IMG/VR virus record: IMGVR_UViG_2778261156_000003
Span: 1 to 28,174 of that record
Direction: 5' to 3' (one strand)
DNA length: 28,174 bases
From: a virus
Lineage: Duplodnaviria; Heunggongvirae; Uroviricota; Caudoviricetes
Positions 2,875 to 21,060 of the stretch are shown in pieces. Every line of letters starts with the position of its first letter. Position 1 is the first letter of the stretch. Below the pieces are notes generated by a model that worked only from the letters and a program-made list of their open reading frames with translations, did not search any database and was not told where the DNA came from. The translations under genes and the position numbers were made by a program.

Positions 2875-2949
<75 letters not shown>

Positions 2950-2952
2950 ATA

Positions 2953-3028
<76 letters not shown>

Positions 3029-3196: not shown

Positions 3197-4243
3197 TTAA
3201 CGATTATTTTTTATTTCAGTTACAGTCTGATTAAATCTCTCTTCTTCCAGTTCCACGCCAATTGCACGACGTCCCAGTGAAAGTGCTGCTTTTATTGTTG
3301 AGCCAGACCCCATAAAAAAATCAGCGACCAAATCACCGGGGCGACTGCTGGCAGTAATTATCTGACGCAACATATCTGCCGGTTTTTCACAGGGATGTTT
3401 GCCTGGATAATACTGCACAGGCTTGTGCGTCCAGACATCCGTATACGGAACAGCAGCTGATACGGAAAAATAACGCCGCAGGGATTTATACTCCTCCTGC
3501 AGGCTGACATATTGCCGGTTCAGTTCACTGTATGTGCTGACCAGCTGGTGGTGTGGCTTTTCCAGCTCCCCTCGCTGATGTTTTTCTGCCGCAACACGCG
3601 CAAACAACGCCTGCAATTTGTTGTAATCACCCTCGTTCGGTAACTGCCACTGACTGGTACCAAACCAGTGCGAAGCCATGTTTTTCTTTCCGGTGGCTTC
3701 CGCTATCTGTTTTGACGTTATTCCCAGTGATTCACGCGCATCACGAAAGTAAGAAATCAGCGGAGCCATGACGTGCTGTTTTAGCTCGCGCCCCTTTGCC
3801 GCATAGCCGTCATTTTTGGGCTGATATGGTCCCTGATAATGTTCTGCAAACAGAATGCGTTCTGTTGCCGGGAAATACGCCCGCAGGCTTTCCTTGTTGC
3901 ATCCGTTCCAGCGTCCGGACGGCTTCGCCCAGATAATGTGATTCAGCACATTAAAGCGTTCACGCATCATGATTTCGGTGTCAGATGCCAGACGATGACC
4001 ACAGAACAGGTAGAGACTTCCGGCAGGTTTCAGTACCCGCCAGAATTGCGCCAGACACTGATCCAGCCATTTCAGGTAATCATCGCCGCCCTTCCACTGG
4101 TTATCCCAGCCCTCGGGCTTCACTTTAAAGTATGGCGGGTCTGTGACTATCAGATCGACAGAGTTTTCCGGTAAGGTCTGGATAAATTCCAGGCAATCAG
4201 CGTTGATTAACTCGCAACTGGATATTTTTACAGTATTAGCCAT
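3197..4243 (-). CDS. DNA methyltransferase (N6-adenine or N4-cytosine, beta-class; motif IV DPPY near N-terminus, motif I FxGSGST near C-terminus), orphan
   Basis: Translation contains LIVTDPPYF (catalytic motif IV) and DFFMGSGSTIKAA (AdoMet-binding motif I) in beta-class order. No adjacent restriction endonuclease gene. Confidence 0.85.
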   Translation of the reverse strand: MANTVKISSCELINADCLEFIQTLPENSVDLIVTDPPYFKVKPEGWDNQWKGGDDYLKWLDQCLAQFWRVLKPAGSLYLFCGHRLASDTEIMMRERFNVLNHIIWAKPSGRWNGCNKESLRAYFPATERILFAEHYQGPYQPKNDGYAAKGRELKQHVMAPLISYFRDARESLGITSKQIAEATGKKNMASHWFGTSQWQLPNEGDYNKLQALFARVAAEKHQRGELEKPHHQLVSTYSELNRQYVSLQEEYKSLRRYFSVSAAVPYTDVWTHKPVQYYPGKHPCEKPADMLRQIITASSRPGDLVADFFMGSGSTIKAALSLGRRAIGVELEEERFNQTVTEIKNNR

Positions 4244-6710: not shown

Positions 6711-7688
6711 TTACCCGAGCACGCCGGTTGCAAAGGCGCGATCAAGAAAACGAAAAATTAAATCAATCTGGGAACCATGCTTTTCTTCAAATGCCAGCGG
6801 ATCAGCATGAAGTTCGTTGTGATGCTCCCGGCACAACGGTAGCGTGAAAATATCGTGAGATTTTGTCCCCATTCCGCCCTGACCATGACCAATCAGGTGA
6901 TGGGGATCGTCGGCTGGCTTACCACAACACGCACACGGCTGTGTCTTCACCCAGCGTGTGTATTTCTCGTTAACCCAGCGGCGACGTTTAGGTCGTTTCA
7001 TGAAAGATTCCGGAGACTCCGGATCAACGGCAATGCTGACCACCGTCTTTTCCTGTGGCGGTTTTTGTTGCTGGTGGGCGTGAAGTGGTAGCACAATATT
7101 TTTTGTGCGCTGCTTCAGTATGCTGGTGGCAGTCTGCTCTCCCGGCATGATGTCGCTTTCGCGGTACACAGAGCGAATTTTTTCCGCACGCAACCCCAGA
7201 GAACGACGTAATACTGCCTCCGGAAGCGCGTCCGCTACCTGATTGCAGACCGACCACCAGGATAATTCAGCCAGCGATAATTCCCGTTCCTGCGTGCCAT
7301 TCATTGCATGGCGTATGACGTCAATCATCCATGCTGACAGGTTTTGATGAGCAAGTTGCCCGAGTGATTCGGATGTCTGGTCACGCAACTGGTTGTCGCA
7401 GTGCCAGCACAACACCATCGCGCCGGTACCGTAACGATGTATGACGATTTCACTGTGATGATAGTCACCATGAGGCCACTGGCAGGATTTGACATGACGC
7501 AACAGCCAGTCAGACAGTGCCCCAGCGCCGCCAGCAGCACGAATCACCCGCTCATCGCTGAAAAATGGCAGTAATGATTTATCCTCCGCCAGCGGCTGGC
7601 GAACGGCAGGGACGACTCCGGACGGCAGACCGCGCATGCTTTTCGGTTCAGGCTCCACCAGCACTCGAGGGTTATGAAATACTTGCAT
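6711..7688 (-). CDS. DUF968/YdfU-like lambdoid protein with C-terminal HNH-like zinc-binding motif
   Basis: C-terminus has CACCGKPADDPHHLIGHGQGGMGTKSHDIFTLPLCREHHNELH (HNH-like). Start chosen at internal ATG 7688 (MQVFHNPRVLVEPEP...) to avoid a 71-nt overlap with the upstream gene; the true start could be 7832. Confidence 0.7.
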   Translation of the reverse strand: MQVFHNPRVLVEPEPKSMRGLPSGVVPAVRQPLAEDKSLLPFFSDERVIRAAGGAGALSDWLLRHVKSCQWPHGDYHHSEIVIHRYGTGAMVLCWHCDNQLRDQTSESLGQLAHQNLSAWMIDVIRHAMNGTQERELSLAELSWWSVCNQVADALPEAVLRRSLGLRAEKIRSVYRESDIMPGEQTATSILKQRTKNIVLPLHAHQQQKPPQEKTVVSIAVDPESPESFMKRPKRRRWVNEKYTRWVKTQPCACCGKPADDPHHLIGHGQGGMGTKSHDIFTLPLCREHHNELHADPLAFEEKHGSQIDLIFRFLDRAFATGVLG

Positions 7689-7761
7689 GGATTCACGGCC
7701 CGGCCTAAGGACCACCAGCCCGAGTTCCGGTACCAGAACAGGTCGAAGTAATATCCGCACG

Positions 7762-8040
7762 TTACCTCCAGATCCGTTGCTGGTATGTGCGGGATGGGCG
7801 CGGTGGGCGTTCGGAATAAGGGAGCCTGACATAGATTATCCAGTGACGATAATCGAGGCTGAGGGCTTTCTTAATCTCGTATCCGCGTCTGCGATAGTTA
7901 TGAATTAGCCATTCGGCCTGTTCTTCAGTACATGGGTCATGCTGGAACCAGTCAGATTTGAAAGTGCGGGAACGCCGCCCGTGCCTGCTGGCAAAGACGG
8001 CAGAATCATCAGAATTGTGTAATTTGGTATCGTGCGCCAT
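7762..8040 (-). CDS. Hypothetical lambdoid nin-region protein (92 aa)
   Basis: ATG at 8040-8038 directly downstream of a minus-strand terminator. Product MAHDTKLHNSDDSAVFASRHGRRSRTFKSDWFQHDPCTEEQAEWLIHNYRRRGYEIKK... has no recognised family. Confidence 0.5.
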   Translation of the reverse strand: MAHDTKLHNSDDSAVFASRHGRRSRTFKSDWFQHDPCTEEQAEWLIHNYRRRGYEIKKALSLDYRHWIIYVRLPYSERPPRPSRTYQQRIWR

Positions 8041-8112
8041 CGGTTGTCTCTGCTGGCGCAGCAGGTGCCAGTTGTTCAGGCTGGCGTGCGAATTGTAAAC
8101 CAGAATGCCAGG

Positions 8113-8137
8113 AAAAAACAAAACCCGCCGAAGCGGG
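8113..8137 (-). terminator. Rho-independent terminator (minus strand) downstream of the lipoprotein moron
   Basis: Stem CCCGC (8124-8128) / GCGGG (8133-8137) with a CGAA loop. On the minus strand it is followed by a U-rich run (plus-strand A-run 8113-8123). A degenerate copy of the same motif sits at 8783-8803. Confidence 0.5.
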
Positions 8138-8336
8138 TATGCTAAAACAAACTGAAAGTAATATACCGGACTTGTAAAGGAACGATAGAATAATTATTGG
8201 ATTAAACCCTGACTCAATCCAGATTTCATAGGCAACAACTACGGACTAATCATCACAGTCATGTTTGATAGACTTAGTCCACATTGGGTGAGGGTTTACG
8301 GCGTTTTCACTAATAATTTATCGTCCAAGCTATACA

Positions 8337-8729
8337 CTACTGCCCTGTTTTAACGAAGTTTTTAAAGGAAACAACTGCCTGATAGGGGTTTGGTTGACAG
8401 CCAAACATATTATCGCAAAAAGGCTTGATGAAAATTCTTGAGGATCCATCTTCATTTGGCATTTTACTCACTTGATAAGCGAGGAATGGACTATTTGGAG
8501 AGGGATTATAAGTGGAAATTAGCGTGTCTGTCGCCGTTTGAATTTTCCATGAGGAATTATTAGCCAACCAGAATTGCGCTCGTTTCCAATAAAAGTCACA
8601 TTGCTTTTCATCATTACATGTTAGTGGCTTCATTGCTTCTGCTTTCAACGCTGGATCGATCTTTGCTGCACACCCTCCCAACATTACTGTTGCAATCATT
8701 ACACCTGCGACTAAAACAAGTTTCTTCAT
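8337..8729 (-). CDS. AT-rich moron: secreted lipoprotein (130 aa; lipobox LGGC; four Cys in mature part), function unknown
   Basis: Product MKKLVLVAGVMIATVMLGGCAAK... is a classic lipoprotein signal peptide. Strong RBS AGGGAG precedes ATG 8729. Low GC. Flanked by terminator-like repeats. Confidence 0.75.
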   Translation of the reverse strand: MKKLVLVAGVMIATVMLGGCAAKIDPALKAEAMKPLTCNDEKQCDFYWKRAQFWLANNSSWKIQTATDTLISTYNPSPNSPFLAYQVSKMPNEDGSSRIFIKPFCDNMFGCQPNPYQAVVSFKNFVKTGQ

Positions 8730-8872
8730 CTCCCTGCCCCATCAATAAAAGTTCGGTTCTCTAATAACTAGAGTTAATCAACGGAAAAAACGCCGAAGCG
8801 GGTTAAGTGCGGGTGCGTTGAGGATGCCTGACACATCAGAGGTGGCGAGGGATTTCTCCCCCGCCAGGTCTC

Positions 8873-9028
8873 TTACTCCTCAGGTTCGTAAGCTGTGAAG
8901 ACAGCGACCTCCGTCTGGCCGGTTCGGATTCGTACCTCGCAGAGGTCTTTCCTCGTTACCAGTGCCGTCACAATGACGGTTAAACAGATGACGATCAGGG
9001 CGATTAACATCGCCTTTTGCTGCTTCAT
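8873..9028 (-). CDS. hokD: Hok/Gef-family type I toxin (HokD/RelF-like)
   Basis: Product MKQQKAMLIALIVICLTVIVTALVTRKDLCEVRIRTGQTEVAVFTAYEPEE matches HokD/RelF as recalled. An in-frame upstream ATG at 9085 could give a mok-like extension. Confidence 0.85.
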   Translation of the reverse strand: MKQQKAMLIALIVICLTVIVTALVTRKDLCEVRIRTGQTEVAVFTAYEPEE

Positions 9029-9264
9029 AGCCTGCTTCTCCTTGCCTTTCGGCACGTAAGAGGCTAACCTAGATTTGCCGTTCATAGATTGAGCCTCAGA
9101 TTAATGTTAAGCGTCTTGCAGGACGCGTAATGTTAACTGGGGCTTTTCTCTATCTGCCTTTGGTGTTCATGCCTGAGACAGATAGCCTCAAGCACCCGCA
9201 GCCATTCTACTTAACTCCCGTTACCTCGCCAATATAAAATCAATCAGAAAGGTGATCCATAAAA

Positions 9265-9951
9265 TCACTCCTTCTCTTCTTTTCCGTAGTGGAGTTGGCC
9301 AATTTTGATAAGAGGGCGTCCCTGAGATTTGCGGTGTAGATTGGTATCGCGCAGAGAATACACACAGCCACAATATTCCTGCTGATAGAATTTTTCGCGC
9401 TTGCTGATTTCAATCATACGGGACGAGCCGCCCTGCTTGCGCCAGTTATAATCCCAGTACACCATACCCGGATAATGCGCAACAGCTCGCCGCCCACACT
9501 CGTTAACCTGCTGCATATTTTTCCAGCGTGAAATGCCCAGTGAACTGCTGATCACACTGAAACCATTTTCAGCAGCGTACAACGCTGTCCGCTCAAAACG
9601 CATGTCAAAACACATGGTACAACGGATCCCCCTCTCAGGCTCCCATTCCATTCCTTTGGCACGTTCAAACCAGTTGTCGGTGTCGTAATCAGCATCGATA
9701 AACGGCACGCCGTGTTGTTCAGCAAAGCGAATATTTTCATCCTTACGAATTAAATACTCTTTCTGAGGATGAATGTTCGGGTTGTAGAAAAAGATGGTGT
9801 AGTCGATTCCCGAGGCCTGAAGCGCCTCCATCACTTCACCGGAACATGGAGCACAGCAAGAGTGCAGTAGTAGTTTGTTTGCCCCGTTTGGGAGCTCCAA
9901 TTTAGGCCGTTTGAAATCAGCAATAGTCATAAATATTTTTATTGGGGTCAT
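9265..9951 (-). CDS. DUF208 protein, epoxyqueuosine reductase QueH-like
   Basis: N-terminal [14 protein letters not shown] motif plus downstream conserved Cys ([17 protein letters not shown]) are characteristic of the QueH/DUF208 family as recalled. Confidence 0.65.
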
Positions 9952-15425: not shown

Positions 15426-15478
15426 TTTCTGGTGACGTTTGGCGGTATCAGTTTTACTCCGTGACTGCTCTGCCGCCA
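15426..15478 (+). ncRNA. dicF: DicF small regulatory RNA (ftsZ-inhibiting sRNA processed from the early-left transcript)
   Basis: TTTCTGGTGACGTTTGGCGGTATCAGTTTTACTCCGTGACTGCTCTGCCGCC followed by ATTTTT matches DicF as recalled. It lies between ydfC and dicB, as in Qin. Confidence 0.85.
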
Positions 15479-18622: not shown

Positions 18623-18826
18623 ATGAGCAGCTTATTTTTAACCGAAGATGAATTGCTAATATTAACGGGCTGCAAATATGCAAGCCACCAGCGAAAATGG
18701 CTAATGGAAAACGGGCTTCCGTTCTATACCAATCGTAGTGGCAAACCGATTGTCAGCCGGGATCTATTTACCTGCAATAAAACTTTACCACCACGCGAGG
18801 TAGAGCCGAATTTTGGTGCGATCTGA
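18623..18826 (+). CDS. Excisionase-like protein (Xis/DUF4224-like)
   Basis: 67-aa product MSSLFLTEDELLILTGCKYASHQRKWLMENGLPFYTNRSGKPIVSRDLF... lies immediately upstream of the integrase, overlapping it by 1 nt (ATGA). Confidence 0.7.
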   Translation: MSSLFLTEDELLILTGCKYASHQRKWLMENGLPFYTNRSGKPIVSRDLFTCNKTLPPREVEPNFGAI

Positions 18827-19851
18827 TGGGAAGACGAAGGAAAAATCCTGAACACGAAAAATTACCTCCAAATGTATACCCAAATAAATATAGTTATGTA
18901 TGGAAACCAACATCCAGAGAATCTGTCACACTAACCGCCATCAAGGATGGTTTAGCTGCTTTATGGAAAAAGTATGAGGAAACTGTAAATAATCGCGATC
19001 GTGCAATGACATTCGGTCGCTTGTGGGAAAAATTCCTCGCCAGCGCCTATTACAGTGACCTTAGTCCAAGAACACAAAAAGATTATCTGCAACATCAAAA
19101 AAAGTTGCTTGCCGTATTCGGTAAGGTACCAGCGGATTCCATAAAACCAGAACACATCCGTCGATACATGGACAAAAGAGGGGAGCAGAGTAAAACGCAA
19201 GCCAACCATGAAAAAAGCAGTATGTCCCGTGTTTACAGTTGGGGGTATGAGCGAGGGTACGTGAAGGCTAACCCATGTGCAGGTGTAAGTAAATTCAAGG
19301 CCAAAAACCGCGAACGATATGTAACCGACAAAGAATACCAGGCAGTATTAAGCGTTGCACCTCTTCCTGTTTTTATCGCAATGGAAATTGCCTATCTGTG
19401 TGCAGCGAGGGTTTCCGATGTGTTATCGCTGAAATGGGAACAGATTGGAAACGACGGGATATTCATCCAGCAAGGGAAAACCGGAAAAAAACAGATAAAA
19501 GCATGGAGCCCACGATTACAGGCAGCGATCGAAAAAGCAAAACAGTTACCAAAATCTGCCTATGTGATCAGCAATCAATACGGCAACCGATATATGTACA
19601 AAGGCTTTAACGAAATGTGGGTAGATGCAAGAAATCGTGCTGGAAAAATTTCAGGTATTTTAACCGACTTCACCTTTCATGATCTGAAGGCGAAAGGAAT
19701 TTCAGACTATGAAGGAAGCAGCCGGGATAAGCAACTTTTCTCTGGTCACAAAACCGAAGGGCAAGTGCTAATCTATGACAGGAAGGTTAAAGTTTCACCA
19801 ACACTTGATGTCCCGTTACCTGAAAATATTCCAAGAAAATATTCCAAGTAA
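18826..19851 (+). CDS. int: Tyrosine-type phage integrase
   Basis: 341-aa product with an ARVSDVLSLKW box and C-terminal HDLK...GHKTEGQVLIYDR catalytic region. Adjacent to the tRNA-Ser 3' end. Confidence 0.9.
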   Translation: MGRRRKNPEHEKLPPNVYPNKYSYVWKPTSRESVTLTAIKDGLAALWKKYEETVNNRDRAMTFGRLWEKFLASAYYSDLSPRTQKDYLQHQKKLLAVFGKVPADSIKPEHIRRYMDKRGEQSKTQANHEKSSMSRVYSWGYERGYVKANPCAGVSKFKAKNRERYVTDKEYQAVLSVAPLPVFIAMEIAYLCAARVSDVLSLKWEQIGNDGIFIQQGKTGKKQIKAWSPRLQAAIEKAKQLPKSAYVISNQYGNRYMYKGFNEMWVDARNRAGKISGILTDFTFHDLKAKGISDYEGSSRDKQLFSGHKTEGQVLIYDRKVKVSPTLDVPLPENIPRKYSK

Positions 19852-19903
19852 TTCCAAGTGTGATTTTTGTCACTGACTTAATGATGTGTAAGTGATTGAA
19901 TTT

Positions 19904-19993
19904 TGGCGGAGAGAGGGGGATTTGAACCCCCGGTGGAGTTGCCCCCACTCCGGTTTTCGAGACCGGTCCGTTCAGCCGCTCCGGCATCTCTCC
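19904..19993 (-). tRNA. serU: tRNA-Ser (anticodon CGA); prophage integration target
   Basis: Reverse complement GGAGAGATGCCGGAGCGGCTGAACGGACCGGTCTCGAAAACCGGAGTGGGGGCAACTCCACCGGGGGTTCAAATCCCCCTCTCTCCGCCA. Long variable arm and anticodon loop CTCGAAA. Confidence 0.9.
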
Positions 19994-20086
19994 GTTCAGA
20001 TGGTTGCCATGATGCCAGGAAATTTGGCATTTTAACAGTCCCTGTCCGTGCAATTTTGTTCAAGTGACGAGTTTGCGAGCAAAACG

Positions 20087-20884
20087 ATGATTAAGTGGCC
20101 CTGGAAAGTACAAGAATCAGCACATCAAACTGCCCTTCCCTGGCAGGAAGCACTATCGATCCCCCTTTTAACGTGTCTGACGGAACAGGAACAAAGCAAA
20201 TTAGTCACTCTTGCCGAACGTTTTTTACAGCAAAAGCGGCTTGTTCCTTTACAGGGCTTTGAACTGGATTCATTAAGAAGCTGCCGGATAGCACTTCTAT
20301 TTTGCCTACCCGTTCTGGAGTTAGGACTGGAATGGCTGGATGGTTTTCATGAAGTCTTAATTTATCCTGCGCCATTTGTGGTCGATGATGAATGGGAAGA
20401 CGATATCGGTCTGGTGCATAACCAACGTATTGTTCAGTCAGGTCAGAGCTGGCAGCAAGGGCCTATCGTTTTGAACTGGTTGGATATACAAGATTCTTTT
20501 GATGCTTCTGGTTTTAACCTGATTATTCATGAAGTCGCTCATAAGCTGGACACCCGTAACGGCGATCGCGCCAGCGGAGTTCCCTTTATTCCGTTGCGTG
20601 AGGTTGCTGGCTGGGAACACGATCTTCATGCTGCAATGAACAACATTCAGGAAGAAATCGAATTGGTTGGCGAGAATGCGGCGAGCATTGATGCTTATGC
20701 TGCCAGTGATCCTGCTGAATGTTTTGCCGTACTTTCTGAATATTTCTTTAGCGCCCCAGAACTTTTTGCTCCTCGTTTCCCTTCATTGTGGCAACGTTTC
20801 TGCCAATTTTATCAACAAGATCCTTTGCAGAGACTGCATCGCACTAATGATACAGACTCGTTTTCGGCGACGAATGTTCATTAA
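20087..20884 (+). CDS. mtfA: Mlc titration factor A (zinc-dependent peptidase MtfA)
   Basis: 265-aa product starting [23 protein letters not shown]... with an HEVAH zinc-binding motif. Matches E. coli MtfA as recalled. Confidence 0.9.
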
Positions 20885-20937
20885 TTAACAACTTTGCAGA
20901 TTAATTAACCAATTGAAATGACTTATGAAATTTAGTG

Positions 20938-20966
20938 TTGACAGACAAGGTACCGCTAAGTAATAT
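20938..20966 (+). promoter_or_regulatory. asnT promoter (sigma-70 -35 TTGACA / -10 TAATAT, 17-bp spacer, GC-rich discriminator)
   Basis: TTGACA at 20938-20943 and TAATAT at 20961-20966 are followed by GCGCCCC, typical of stringently controlled tRNA promoters. Confidence 0.6.
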
Positions 20967-20984
20967 GCGCCCCGTTCACACGAT

Positions 20985-21060
20985 TCCTCTGTAGTTCAGT
21001 CGGTAGAACGGCGGACTGTTAATCCGTATGTCACTGGTTCGAGTCCAGTCAGAGGAGCCA
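20985..21060 (+). tRNA. asnT: tRNA-Asn (anticodon GUU)
   Basis: TCCTCTGTAGTTCAGTCGGTAGAACGGCGGACTGTTAATCCGTATGTCACTGGTTCGAGTCCAGTCAGAGGAGCCA is the canonical E. coli tRNA-Asn. Confidence 0.95.

What the first reader, a model, noticed from the sequence alone, without database searches (positions are those of the whole stretch)
8113..8803. AT-rich lipoprotein moron bracketed by two copies of a terminator-like motif
Seen in sequence: a 130-aa lipoprotein (signal MKKLVLVAGVMIATVMLGGC, four Cys in the mature part) with a strong RBS and low GC. It is flanked by GGAAAAAAC...CCGCCGAAGCGGGT (8111-8137) and a degenerate copy GGAAAAAACGCCGAAGCGGGTT (8783-8803). Inference: the gene looks like a self-contained transcription unit dropped between nin-region genes and hok. 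Small phage lipoproteins in such positions are often superinfection-exclusion factors or envelope-modifying virulence factors.
Basis: partly seen in the sequence, partly recalled or inferred. Interest (0 to 1): 0.5.

Follow-up and report, generated by a model that had tools for sequence, protein, structure and literature searches.

The report
Prophage lipoprotein cassette in hokD terminator
A small AT-rich gene cassette sits inside the transcription terminator of a prophage killer gene in E. coli; it encodes an outer-membrane-type lipoprotein from a large, unstudied prophage family that probably alters the cell envelope of the lysogen, most likely to keep other phages out.

Summary
The 130-aa lipoprotein ORF (8337-8729) lies on the minus strand. 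The two flanking motifs are direct repeats of the hokD rho-independent terminator. The copy downstream of the gene (8111-8138) is intact. The copy upstream (8783-8804) no longer folds into a hairpin.

About 2,150 of 5,426 complete E. coli genomes carry the same site uninterrupted, with one terminator. 254 carry the cassette, always with the same junction. The cassette has 38-41% GC against 52-59% in the flanks, and dN/dS is 0.11-0.15.

The protein matches no Pfam, NCBIfam, PADLOC or PDB sequence. It belongs to a family of at least 1,140 clusters of ~125-aa lipoproteins with four invariant Cys and a KA1/BamC/Flpp3-like fold. Relatives sit as inserts at several junctions of lambda-type tail-tip gene clusters, directly behind CI-type repressor genes, or beside a porin gene. 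They are almost absent from sequenced phage isolates.

This is a genuine moron. Superinfection exclusion by masking an outer-membrane receptor is the leading inference and is untested. The protein is not a Cor, Llp or Bor homologue. In this allele its own promoter looks degenerate, so read-through from the hok promoter is likely.

The parts
8337..8729 (-). Lipoprotein CDS, 130 aa. Signal peptide is residues 1-19 (8673-8729). Lipobox LGGC is at 8670-8681, with the lipidated Cys20 at 8670-8672. Mature protein is ~110 aa with Cys38/44/105/111.
   Evidence: ORF list. PHROG 16082 at 2.9e-84, function unknown. dN/dS 0.11-0.15. AF2 model with mature part pLDDT >90. RefSeq annotates it as hypothetical protein WP_000737634.1.
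8111..8138 (-). Intact rho-independent terminator, ACCCGCUUCGGCGGGU + UUUGUUUUUUCC. It is identical to the single hokD terminator of uninterrupted sites and ends the lipoprotein transcript.
   Evidence: Terminator scan; fold -18.3 kcal/mol, z -3.65; identical to the empty-site sequence in L003 and L008.
8783..8804 (-). Degenerate upstream terminator copy, AACCCGCUUCGGCG-UUUUUUCC. The stem is reduced to 3 bp. This is the left recombination junction between the hokD 3' end and the cassette.
   Evidence: Repeat family D1; no stable hairpin, z +0.43; the same junction in all 54 E. coli-type IMG/VR loci whose junction could be read.
8730..8782 (-). Cassette leader. It contains the small palindrome CTCTAGTTATTAGAG (8759-8773), the remnant -10-like hexamer TATTAG (8761-8766) and the G-rich RBS (8730-8740).
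   Evidence: Alignment with the leaders of Enterobacter L011, L081, L080 and Pantoea L082; hexamer scoring; no consensus promoter in the scan.
8139..8336 (-). 198-nt 3' untranslated region of the cassette. It includes a ~69-bp segment (about 8221-8290) that is absent from a minority allele.
   Evidence: Alignment with L004 and L010. The segment is single-copy and found only in this cassette, in 225 genomes. The fold is not significant, z -1.76. No Rfam family matches.
8873..9232 (-). Upstream neighbour, the hokD/sok type I toxin-antitoxin locus. It comprises the hok promoter-like site (9204-9232), the Rfam sok/hok-leader match (9023-9197), the hokD CDS (8873-9028) and the fold-back element CCUCAACGCACCCGC (8809-8823), which is complementary to the mRNA 5' end (9186-9199). 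Its terminator is the insertion target.
   Evidence: Pfam HOK_GEF 3e-23; Rfam RF01794 at 110 bits; promoter-like site; the complementarity was read directly from the sequence.
7762..8040 (-). Downstream neighbour, a 92-aa hypothetical gene (PHROG 1212), followed by the DUF968/YdfU gene (annotated 6711-7760). It marks the right border of the insertion site.
   Evidence: RefSeq annotation of the identical region; PHROG hit; Pfam DUF968.

Best explanation
What is shown. A ~665-bp AT-rich moron was inserted into the intrinsic terminator that ends the hokD killer-gene transcript of a Qin-like lambdoid prophage. The insertion most likely occurred once, by recombination within that terminator. It left a broken terminator copy upstream of the new gene and the intact copy downstream.

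What is inferred about the protein. The gene encodes a Sec/Lgt/LspA-processed lipoprotein. [quoted passage not shown] The mature protein is ~12 kDa, probably has two disulfides, and has a compact KA1/BamC/Flpp3-like alpha+beta fold.

The most likely role is prophage-conferred envelope modification. Specifically, it would bind the periplasmic face of an outer-membrane protein that serves as a phage receptor, so that further phages cannot adsorb or inject. This would be superinfection exclusion of the Llp/Cor/Rtp45 type by an unrelated protein.

What is inferred about expression. In this allele the gene has no convincing promoter of its own. It is probably transcribed by read-through from the constitutive hok promoter in the lysogen, and by antiterminated early transcripts during lytic growth. 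Transcription would stop at the intact terminator copy.
For: Insertion.
- The uninterrupted site (hokD 3' end, one terminator, next gene) is present in ~2,158 of 5,426 genomes. The cassette is present in 254.
- The left junction is identical in the 54 IMG/VR E. coli-type loci whose junction could be read.
- GC is 0.38-0.41 against 0.52-0.59 in the flanks.
- The two terminator copies differ in stability: only the downstream one folds.

Real gene. dN/dS is 0.11-0.15. The ORF is intact in all loci examined.

Prophage accessory function.
- Relatives lie at four different junctions of lambda-type tail-tip clusters: H|M in Enterobacter, M|L in L087, I|J in Pantoea, and just upstream of gpI and gpJ in L081. 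L080 looks like a further tail-cluster insert, judged from ORF sizes only.
- One relative lies inside a different siphophage tail module.
- In L143 and L145 the gene lies immediately downstream of, and on the same strand as, a CI-like HTH+S24 repressor gene, the rexAB-type position.
- Other relatives lie next to immunity regions.
- A 218-aa relative lies beside a porin gene.
- Some chromosomal relatives are fused to PDZ domains.
- Among 50,697 sequenced phage records, the family appears only in two induced E. coli prophages. This points to a function in lysogeny.

Expression.
- No promoter is found in the leader.
- The conserved TAGGAT of relatives is TATTAG here.
- A hok promoter-like site lies at 9204-9232.
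- The upstream terminator is disabled.
Against: - There is no experimental datum of any kind, and no sequence or significant structural similarity to any known exclusion lipoprotein.
- Known receptor-masking lipoproteins are about half this size, ~6-7 kDa (PMC12685063, PMC9586334).
- In this window the gene is not next to tail or receptor-binding genes.
- Family members also occur in apparently non-phage chromosomal settings, so the ancestral function may have nothing to do with phages.
- Read-through from hok is inferred from sequence alone. A weak or non-sigma-70 promoter in the leader cannot be excluded.
- The terminator core CCCGCTTCGGCGGGTTTT is very common in phage genomes, so its presence upstream of relatives in other contexts may be partly coincidental.
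Confidence: 0.45

Rival explanations
1. The lipoprotein is a lysogenic-conversion factor that benefits the host in some way other than phage exclusion, for example serum or complement resistance like Bor/Iss, adhesion, or tolerance of envelope stress.
For: The genomic evidence is the same as for the best explanation: a moron architecture, a position behind the repressor gene and lysogeny-restricted distribution. Many host genomes are clinical or avian-pathogenic isolates such as APEC IMT5155 and ST131. The closest fold match, Flpp3, is described in its PDB entry as a Francisella virulence determinant.
Against: There is no match to the Bor family or any other Pfam family. Repeated insertion specifically into tail-tip gene clusters next to the receptor-binding protein J is more typical of receptor-linked exclusion genes. 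The family is widespread in environmental metagenomes, where host-serum functions make no sense.
Confidence: 0.25
2. The lipoprotein is a periplasmic immunity protein or inhibitor against an envelope-targeting enzyme or toxin. Candidates include a lysozyme inhibitor protecting against endolysins, an immunity protein to a T6SS or colicin effector, or a modulator of Hok.
Against: There are no hits to the Ivy, MliC/PliC or PliG families or to any Pfam family, and none of these appear among the top structural matches. No toxin or effector gene accompanies the relatives. The hok neighbourhood is unique to the E. coli allele.
Confidence: 0.1
3. The protein acts in the lytic cycle or in virion assembly, as a tail-assembly accessory or lysis component, rather than in the lysogen.
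For: Several relatives lie inside tail gene clusters, in the same orientation as the late genes.
Against: The position within the tail cluster differs from phage to phage. Insertions are bounded by their own terminators. Most related phages lack the gene. Other relatives sit behind repressor genes. A lipid-anchored, exported protein is unlikely to act as a cytoplasmic tail-assembly factor. The family is absent from sequenced phage isolates.
Confidence: 0.07
4. The terminator repeats are a target-site duplication made by a transposition-like or site-specific mobile element, not a product of homology-driven recombination.
For: The repeat boundaries are sharp on both sides of the insert. One phage record labels a small opposite-strand ORF in the 3' UTR 'mobile element protein'.
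Against: The cassette has no transposase or integrase and no terminal inverted repeats. Its DNA is single-copy per genome. A 21-28-bp duplication fits no common IS family (from general knowledge). The upstream copy continues into sequence homologous to the terminator-plus-leader found upstream of relatives in unrelated contexts, as expected if a cassette-borne terminator crossed over with the hokD terminator.
Confidence: 0.05

Closest known systems
Receptor-masking superinfection-exclusion lipoproteins: Llp (T5, FhuA), Cor (phi80/T1/N15, FhuA), Rtp45 (Rtp, LptD)
   Same: All are phage-encoded lipoproteins with a classical lipobox and disulfide-stabilised mature part, presumed to sit in the inner leaflet of the outer membrane. 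Relatives of the window protein sit beside the tail-tip and receptor-binding genes, as llp and cor do (PMC9586334, PMC12685063).
   Different: There is no sequence relationship. The Cor PHROG matches only the signal peptide at E 0.009, and no PDB sequence hit was found. The mature protein is ~110 aa against ~60 aa, with four Cys instead of two and a different alpha+beta fold. The family occurs in temperate prophages only, whereas Llp, Cor and Rtp45 come largely from virulent phages. In this window the gene lies in the nin region, not near tail genes. No exclusion phenotype has been shown.
Classical lambdoid morons (lambda bor and lom, HK97 gp15) as defined by Hendrix and colleagues
   Same: It shows presence/absence polymorphism between collinear phages, deviant base composition and its own downstream terminator. 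Relatives are inserted between late genes.
   Different: This allele has no recognisable promoter of its own. It is inserted within a terminator, which is thereby duplicated and half destroyed. It is not homologous to Bor or Lom, and there is no Pfam hit.
Genes co-transcribed with the prophage repressor (lambda rexAB type position)
   Same: In L143 and L145 the relative lies directly downstream of, and on the same strand as, a CI-like HTH+Peptidase_S24 repressor gene.
   Different: The protein type is unrelated: an exported lipoprotein rather than cytoplasmic or inner-membrane Rex proteins. This arrangement is not the one found in the window.
Flpp3 (DUF3568), BamC N-terminal domain and eukaryotic KA1 domains (structural neighbours)
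   Same: All share a compact helix-plus-antiparallel-sheet fold of ~100 residues. Flpp3 and BamC are also outer-membrane lipoproteins.
Rem (E. coli K-12 Qin prophage), the alternative cargo at the same site
   Same: It occupies the same interval, between the hokD terminator and the small gene upstream of ydfU.
   Different: Rem is an unrelated 83-aa cytoplasmic-type protein. It is not flanked by a second terminator copy, and the hokD terminator stays intact there.

Membership tests
Bacterial lipoprotein (Lgt/LspA/Lnt substrate) | N-terminal signal peptide with a positive n-region and a hydrophobic h-region | tested here: met
   MKK followed by 14 hydrophobic residues; conserved in character across relatives.
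Bacterial lipoprotein (Lgt/LspA/Lnt substrate) | Lipobox [LVI][ASTVIG][GAS]C with an invariant Cys at position 15-35 | tested here: met
   L-G-G-C20. Cys20 is invariant in 44 of 44 aligned relatives, most of which have LSGC or LAGC.
Bacterial lipoprotein (Lgt/LspA/Lnt substrate) | Actual lipidation and outer-membrane localisation (residue +2 is not Asp) | not testable with these tools
   Residue +2 is Ala, which predicts Lol export to the outer membrane by the E. coli rule. This is inference only.
Moron (Hendrix/Juhala definition) | Present in some and absent from other otherwise collinear phage genomes, with precise boundaries | tested here: met
   The empty junction is in ~2,158 genomes and the cassette in 254. 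Junctions were read base by base.
Moron (Hendrix/Juhala definition) | Base composition different from the surrounding genome | tested here: met
   GC 0.38-0.415 against 0.52-0.59.
Moron (Hendrix/Juhala definition) | Own downstream terminator | tested here: met
   Intrinsic terminator at 8138-8111. Relatives each have a terminator after the gene.
Moron (Hendrix/Juhala definition) | Own promoter that allows expression from the repressed prophage | tested here: inconclusive
   No site reaches 9 of 12 matches in the leader. Relatives have TTGCCG/TTGCGT, a 15-16-nt spacer, then TAGGAT; L087 has TTAATT-N16-TGgTATGAT. This allele has TATTAG, which lacks the -7 T. No transcript data are available.
Cor superinfection-exclusion family (PHROG 1119) | Sequence homology over the mature protein | tested here: not met
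   The hit has E 0.0088 and covers residues 1-43 only, that is the signal peptide and a few more residues.
Llp / Rtp45-type exclusion lipoproteins | Sequence or structural similarity to the solved Llp or Rtp45 chains | tested here: not met
Llp / Cor / Rtp45-type exclusion lipoproteins | Blocks adsorption or infection by binding the phage's outer-membrane receptor | not testable with these tools
   This requires plaque and adsorption assays and binding studies.
Llp / Cor / Rtp45-type exclusion lipoproteins | Gene adjacent to the receptor-binding or tail-tip genes | tested here: inconclusive
   Not met in the window, where the gene is in the nin region between hokD and ydfU-like genes. Met in the Enterobacter, Pantoea, L081 and L087 relatives; L080 appears similar from ORF sizes only.
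Lambda Bor / Iss lipoproteins | Match to the Bor family profile | tested here: not met
   No Pfam family matches at E <= 0.1 apart from a spurious C4 hit. No NCBIfam match.
Periplasmic lysozyme inhibitors (Ivy, MliC/PliC, PliG) | Match to the family profiles or folds | tested here: not met
Known anti-phage defence system proteins (PADLOC-DB) | Match to any PADLOC model | tested here: not met
   No families matched the window protein or two relatives.

The most novel reading that the evidence does not exclude
This four-Cys lipoprotein family (at least 1,140 clusters, in no curated database) may be a previously unrecognised, widespread class of prophage receptor-masking proteins. It would dock onto the periplasmic side of porin-type or other outer-membrane receptors used by lambda-J-type tail tips. 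Its chromosomal PDZ-fused and porin-adjacent relatives would reflect an ancestral outer-membrane-protein-binding role. In the E. coli allele, the cassette would have captured the constitutive hok promoter by destroying the hok terminator, coupling a killer-gene transcript to an exclusion gene.
Probability: 0.25. Interest if true: 0.65.

Novelty: new variant of a known kind. Interest (0 to 1): 0.42.

Why it matters
Prophage genes that alter the bacterial surface determine which phages can infect a strain. That matters for phage therapy, phage typing and prophage ecology. The few exclusion lipoproteins understood so far (Llp, Cor, Rtp45) are tiny proteins, mostly from virulent phages. No equivalent is known for the very common lambda-like temperate phages of enterobacteria.

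This family is large, uncurated and almost confined to prophages. It sits in the positions where exclusion genes usually sit. One cloning experiment plus a phage panel would test the idea.

The locus also gives a clean, base-resolved example of how a moron arrives: by recombination inside a terminator. The insertion may have rewired transcription of a neighbouring toxin-antitoxin locus.

Tried and rejected
- Pfam, NCBIfam and PADLOC gave no family for the protein. PHROGs gave only unknown-function families.
- A PDB sequence profile search gave nothing. A BFVD viral fold search gave nothing significant. The AlphaFold DB library was unavailable.
- The scan of GTDB genome contigs returned no confirmed locus. 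The broad alignment A3 was too diverse for pattern scanning.
- Literature searches by accession and by topic found no paper on this protein.
- MITE or transposon origin was considered. The cassette has no terminal inverted repeats, its DNA is single-copy, and the 69-bp 3'-UTR segment occurs nowhere else in E. coli. Rejected.
- A small RNA in the 198-nt 3' UTR was considered. There is no Rfam match, and the fold z-score of -1.76 is unremarkable. Rejected.
- I considered whether the upstream terminator is a signature unique to this cassette. The core CCCGCTTCGGCGGGTTTT..CGTT is a generic phage terminator, with at least 120 IMG/VR matches in unrelated contexts. Only the terminator plus leader together is informative.
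- A sigma-E or sigma-54 promoter in the leader was checked by eye. No match to either consensus.
Full report
**1. What is in the sequence**

The region lies in the early-right (nin-like) arm of a Qin-type lambdoid E. coli prophage, and all genes there read on the minus strand. In order of transcription they are:
- QueH (9265-9951)
- the hokD/sok locus (hokD CDS 8873-9028; Rfam sok/hok-leader match 9023-9197 at 110 bits)
- the 130-aa ORF (8337-8729)
- a 92-aa hypothetical gene (7762-8040)
- a DUF968/YdfU gene
- RusA

GC content is 0.38-0.415 over 8100-8800, against 0.52-0.59 on both sides.

The two flanking motifs are real direct repeats. ACCCGCTTCGGCG occurs exactly twice in 28 kb, where 0.06 matches are expected by chance, and the copies are 665 nt apart.

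On the coding strand, the copy downstream of the gene (8138-8111) is a textbook intrinsic terminator, ACCCGC-UUCG-GCGGGU followed by UUUGUUUUUU. Its fold is -18.3 kcal/mol with z = -3.65. The copy upstream of the gene (8804-8783) lacks 7 nt, keeps only a 3-bp stem, and folds no better than shuffled sequence (z = +0.43).

**2. It is an insertion into the hokD terminator**

I searched 5,426 complete E. coli genomes with the joined flanks. The commonest arrangement is uninterrupted: the hokD 3' UTR ...CACTTA, then one terminator ACCCGCTTCGGCGGGTTTTGTTTTTTCC, then TGGCATTCTGGTTTACAAT... leading into the 92-aa gene.
- About 2,158 genomes have this junction.
- 254 genomes have the cassette, always on chromosomes and usually in one copy.

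Base-by-base comparison shows that the filled allele equals the empty allele plus ~665 bp. The terminator is present on both sides of the insert. In all 54 E. coli-type loci retrieved from IMG/VR whose junction could be read, the left junction is the same degenerate copy. This points to a single ancestral event.

The same interval holds other cargo in other prophages:
- rem in K-12 Qin
- a 72%-identical rem allele
- a 318-bp AT-rich segment with no convincing ORF

In those cases the hokD terminator is intact and is not duplicated.

**3. How the insertion probably happened**

Relatives of the gene in an Enterobacter hormaechei prophage (L011) and in contig L081 sit in quite different genomic contexts. 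Both are nonetheless preceded by the same kind of terminator followed by a homologous leader:
- L011: GCCCGCTTCGGTGGGTTTTGCCGTTAAC...
- L081: ACCCGCTTCGGCGGGTTTTTGCGTTGCCCTTAAC...
- this window: ACCCGCTTCGGCG-TTTTTTCCGTTGATTAAC...

The upstream copy in the window therefore continues into cassette-type sequence, while the downstream copy is identical to the resident hokD terminator.

The simplest reading is a crossover between a cassette-borne terminator and the hokD terminator. This could be Campbell-like integration of a circularised segment or an equivalent unequal exchange, and it would leave a copy on each side.

There is a caveat. The terminator core is generic: at least 120 IMG/VR stretches match it in unrelated contexts. 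Only the combination of terminator and leader is informative.

That combination also precedes different cargo genes in two other prophages, L207 and L218. It therefore behaves as a portable 5' module for morons.

A transposition-type origin is unlikely. The cassette has no transposase, no terminal inverted repeats, and only single-copy DNA.

**4. Transcription**

In four relatives a conserved hexamer TAGGAT lies 27-33 nt upstream of the start codon. A TTGCCG/TTGCGT -35 element overlaps the U-tract of the upstream terminator. Another relative, L087, has TTAATT-N16-TGgTATGAT. Those relatives look like self-contained units with a promoter and a terminator.

In the window the homologous hexamer reads TATTAG, and TATCAG in variant alleles. 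It lacks the key -7 T. The consensus scan finds no promoter between hokD and the ORF.

The hok promoter-like site (9232-9204, TTGGCG-N17-TAGAAT) and the hok fold-back pairing are intact. The pairing is between 8823-8809 and the mRNA 5' end at 9199-9186, read directly. The terminator that should end the hok mRNA is disabled.

I therefore infer that, in the lysogen, the gene is expressed mainly as the distal part of a ~1.1-kb hok transcript that stops at 8138-8111. During lytic growth it would be expressed from antiterminated early transcripts. This is inference from sequence, and no transcript data were available.

**5. The protein**

dN/dS is 0.15 against a variant E. coli allele and 0.11 against the Enterobacter homologue, so the gene is functional.

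It matches no Pfam, NCBIfam or PADLOC model and no PDB sequence. PHROGs places it in family 16082, function unknown. The Cor family matches only the signal peptide.

An exhaustive profile search found 1,140 clusters (50% identity) at E <= 1e-3 and 532 at E <= 1e-10. Nearly all members are 125-135-aa lipoproteins with the signature C...QCD.YW.RAQ.W...NS.WKIQ..TD..I.T...P...AY......CDN.FGC.P....A..FK.(F/Y)V. The lipobox Cys and three of the four mature-part Cys are invariant in the 44-sequence alignment, and Cys111 is nearly so.

Some longer members carry a C-terminal PDZ domain, and one is a tandem duplication.

The AlphaFold model has pLDDT 84 overall and above 90 for the mature part. It is a compact alpha+beta domain of two long helices packed on a four-stranded sheet.

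Residue +2 is Ala, which predicts sorting to the outer membrane by the established Lol rule. This is inference.

**6. Where relatives live**

The genomic contexts I found were:
- Enterobacter: between the tape-measure gene and gpM.
- Pantoea: between gpI and gpJ.
- L087: between gpM and gpL.
- L081: after an antirepressor-type gene and just upstream of gpI and gpJ, followed by a second, unrelated lipoprotein gene.
- L080: the same two-lipoprotein arrangement, apparently within the tail-tip cluster. The neighbouring genes there were judged from ORF sizes only, not scanned.
- Phytobacter: next to a gpM remnant.
- A metagenomic siphophage of another type: inside the tail module.
- Two phage types: beside the immunity region.
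- L143 and L145: directly downstream of, and co-oriented with, a CI-like HTH+Peptidase_S24 repressor gene.
- One chromosomal copy beside a transposase fragment.
- A 218-aa relative beside a porin gene.

Nearly every phage-borne copy whose downstream flank I read has its own downstream terminator.

Among 50,697 sequenced phage records, only two induced E. coli prophages carry the family, even when the search used distant members.

The family thus inserts repeatedly and independently at different junctions, favours the tail-tip/J neighbourhood and the repressor neighbourhood, and is restricted to temperate elements. This is the pattern expected of a lysogen-expressed accessory gene, and these are the classical positions of exclusion genes.

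**7. Interpretation**

Shown:
- A real moron-type insertion in the hokD terminator.
- A selected gene that encodes a lipoprotein.
- Membership of a large, uncharacterised, prophage-associated family.

Inferred:
- Outer-membrane localisation.
- Two disulfides.
- Expression by read-through from hok.

The leading functional hypothesis, at roughly 0.4, is superinfection exclusion by masking an outer-membrane receptor from the periplasmic side. This is how Llp acts on FhuA and Rtp45 acts on LptD (PMC9586334, PMC12685063). The PDZ fusions and the porin neighbour give weak support for an outer-membrane-protein partner.

The protein works, at most, like those proteins. It is not a member of their families: it is twice their size, has a different fold, and shows no sequence relationship.

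The rival explanations are another lysogenic-conversion envelope function, an immunity or inhibitor role, a lytic-cycle role, and a transposition origin of the repeats. All rank lower, for the reasons given in their entries.

**8. Verdict**

The finding is a new, unrelated variant of a known kind of element, a prophage moron that encodes an envelope lipoprotein. It is of moderate interest. It is not surprising in kind, but it defines a large unstudied family with a cheap decisive experiment, and it gives a clean example of moron insertion inside a terminator with possible rewiring of a toxin-antitoxin transcript.

Noticed in passing
window 8041-8138 and 8783-8872; loci L002, L005, L006, L007: The interval between the hokD terminator and the TACAAT box upstream of the 92-aa gene is a cargo hotspot. 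It can be empty, or hold the lipoprotein cassette, rem (K-12 Qin), a 72%-identical rem allele, or a 318-bp AT-rich segment without a convincing ORF.
   Followed up: partly
L207 about 3751-3830 (+); L218 (minus strand) about 4409 from the reverse-complemented start; L081 4880-5000: The same terminator-plus-leader module (CCCGCTTCGGCGGGTTTTT(G/C)CGTT..., TAGGATT or TTACTTATGGGGATAGGGATGTG) precedes different cargo genes. In L207 it is a 300-aa FtsK-gamma-like winged-helix protein. In L218 it is a 139-aa non-lipoprotein ORF. Each is followed by another lipoprotein-like ORF. The module looks like a portable 5' element shared among morons.
   Followed up: partly
window 8809-8823 and 9186-9199 (minus strand): The hok fold-back element CCUCAACGCACCCGC, directly upstream of the broken terminator, is complementary to the predicted hok mRNA 5' end GCGGGUGCUUGAGG. 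The cassette therefore moves the hok mRNA 3' end 665 nt downstream, which could change 3' processing and activation of the toxin mRNA.
   Followed up: no
window about 8221-8290: A 69-bp segment in the 3' UTR of the cassette is absent from a minority allele (L004, L010). It contains an internal inverted repeat (GGACTAA/TTAGTCC) and lies within the inverted repeat 8203-8218 / 8283-8298. It is single-copy and occurs only in this cassette.
   Followed up: yes
L080 5374-5784; L081 5344-5679: In the two Pantoea-like prophages L080 and L081, the lipoprotein gene is immediately followed (overlapping or abutting) by a second lipoprotein gene. The second genes are unrelated to the first and have no Pfam family. 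The L080 and L081 versions also differ from each other.
   Followed up: partly
proteins P0034, P0101, P0103, P0134, P0117; loci L085, L086: Distant family members are fused to a C-terminal PDZ domain, and one is a tandem duplication of the domain. A 218-aa relative lies directly downstream of a Porin_4 gene in two metagenomic contigs.
   Followed up: partly
window 9265-9951 (-): The prophage carries a QueH (epoxyqueuosine reductase) gene between the replication genes and hokD. This is a queuosine-pathway gene in a temperate phage.
   Followed up: no
window 2875-3028, 3197-4243, 15427-15478, 18826-21060: Other features of the window:
- phage tRNA-Gly and tRNA-Thr genes
- an N6/N4 DNA methylase gene
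- the DicF sRNA
- an integrase gene next to tRNA-Ser(CGA), followed by the host genes mtfA and tRNA-Asn and a 2,147-aa ORF

The prophage is therefore integrated at the serU-type tRNA-Ser locus.
   Followed up: partly
L002 4306-4602 (K-12 MG1655 1644305-1644601): K-12 Qin has DNA 84% identical to the window's 92-aa gene region, but no CDS is annotated there. One phage record (ON470583) labels the homologous gene 'toxin to Rem', which I could not substantiate.
   Followed up: no
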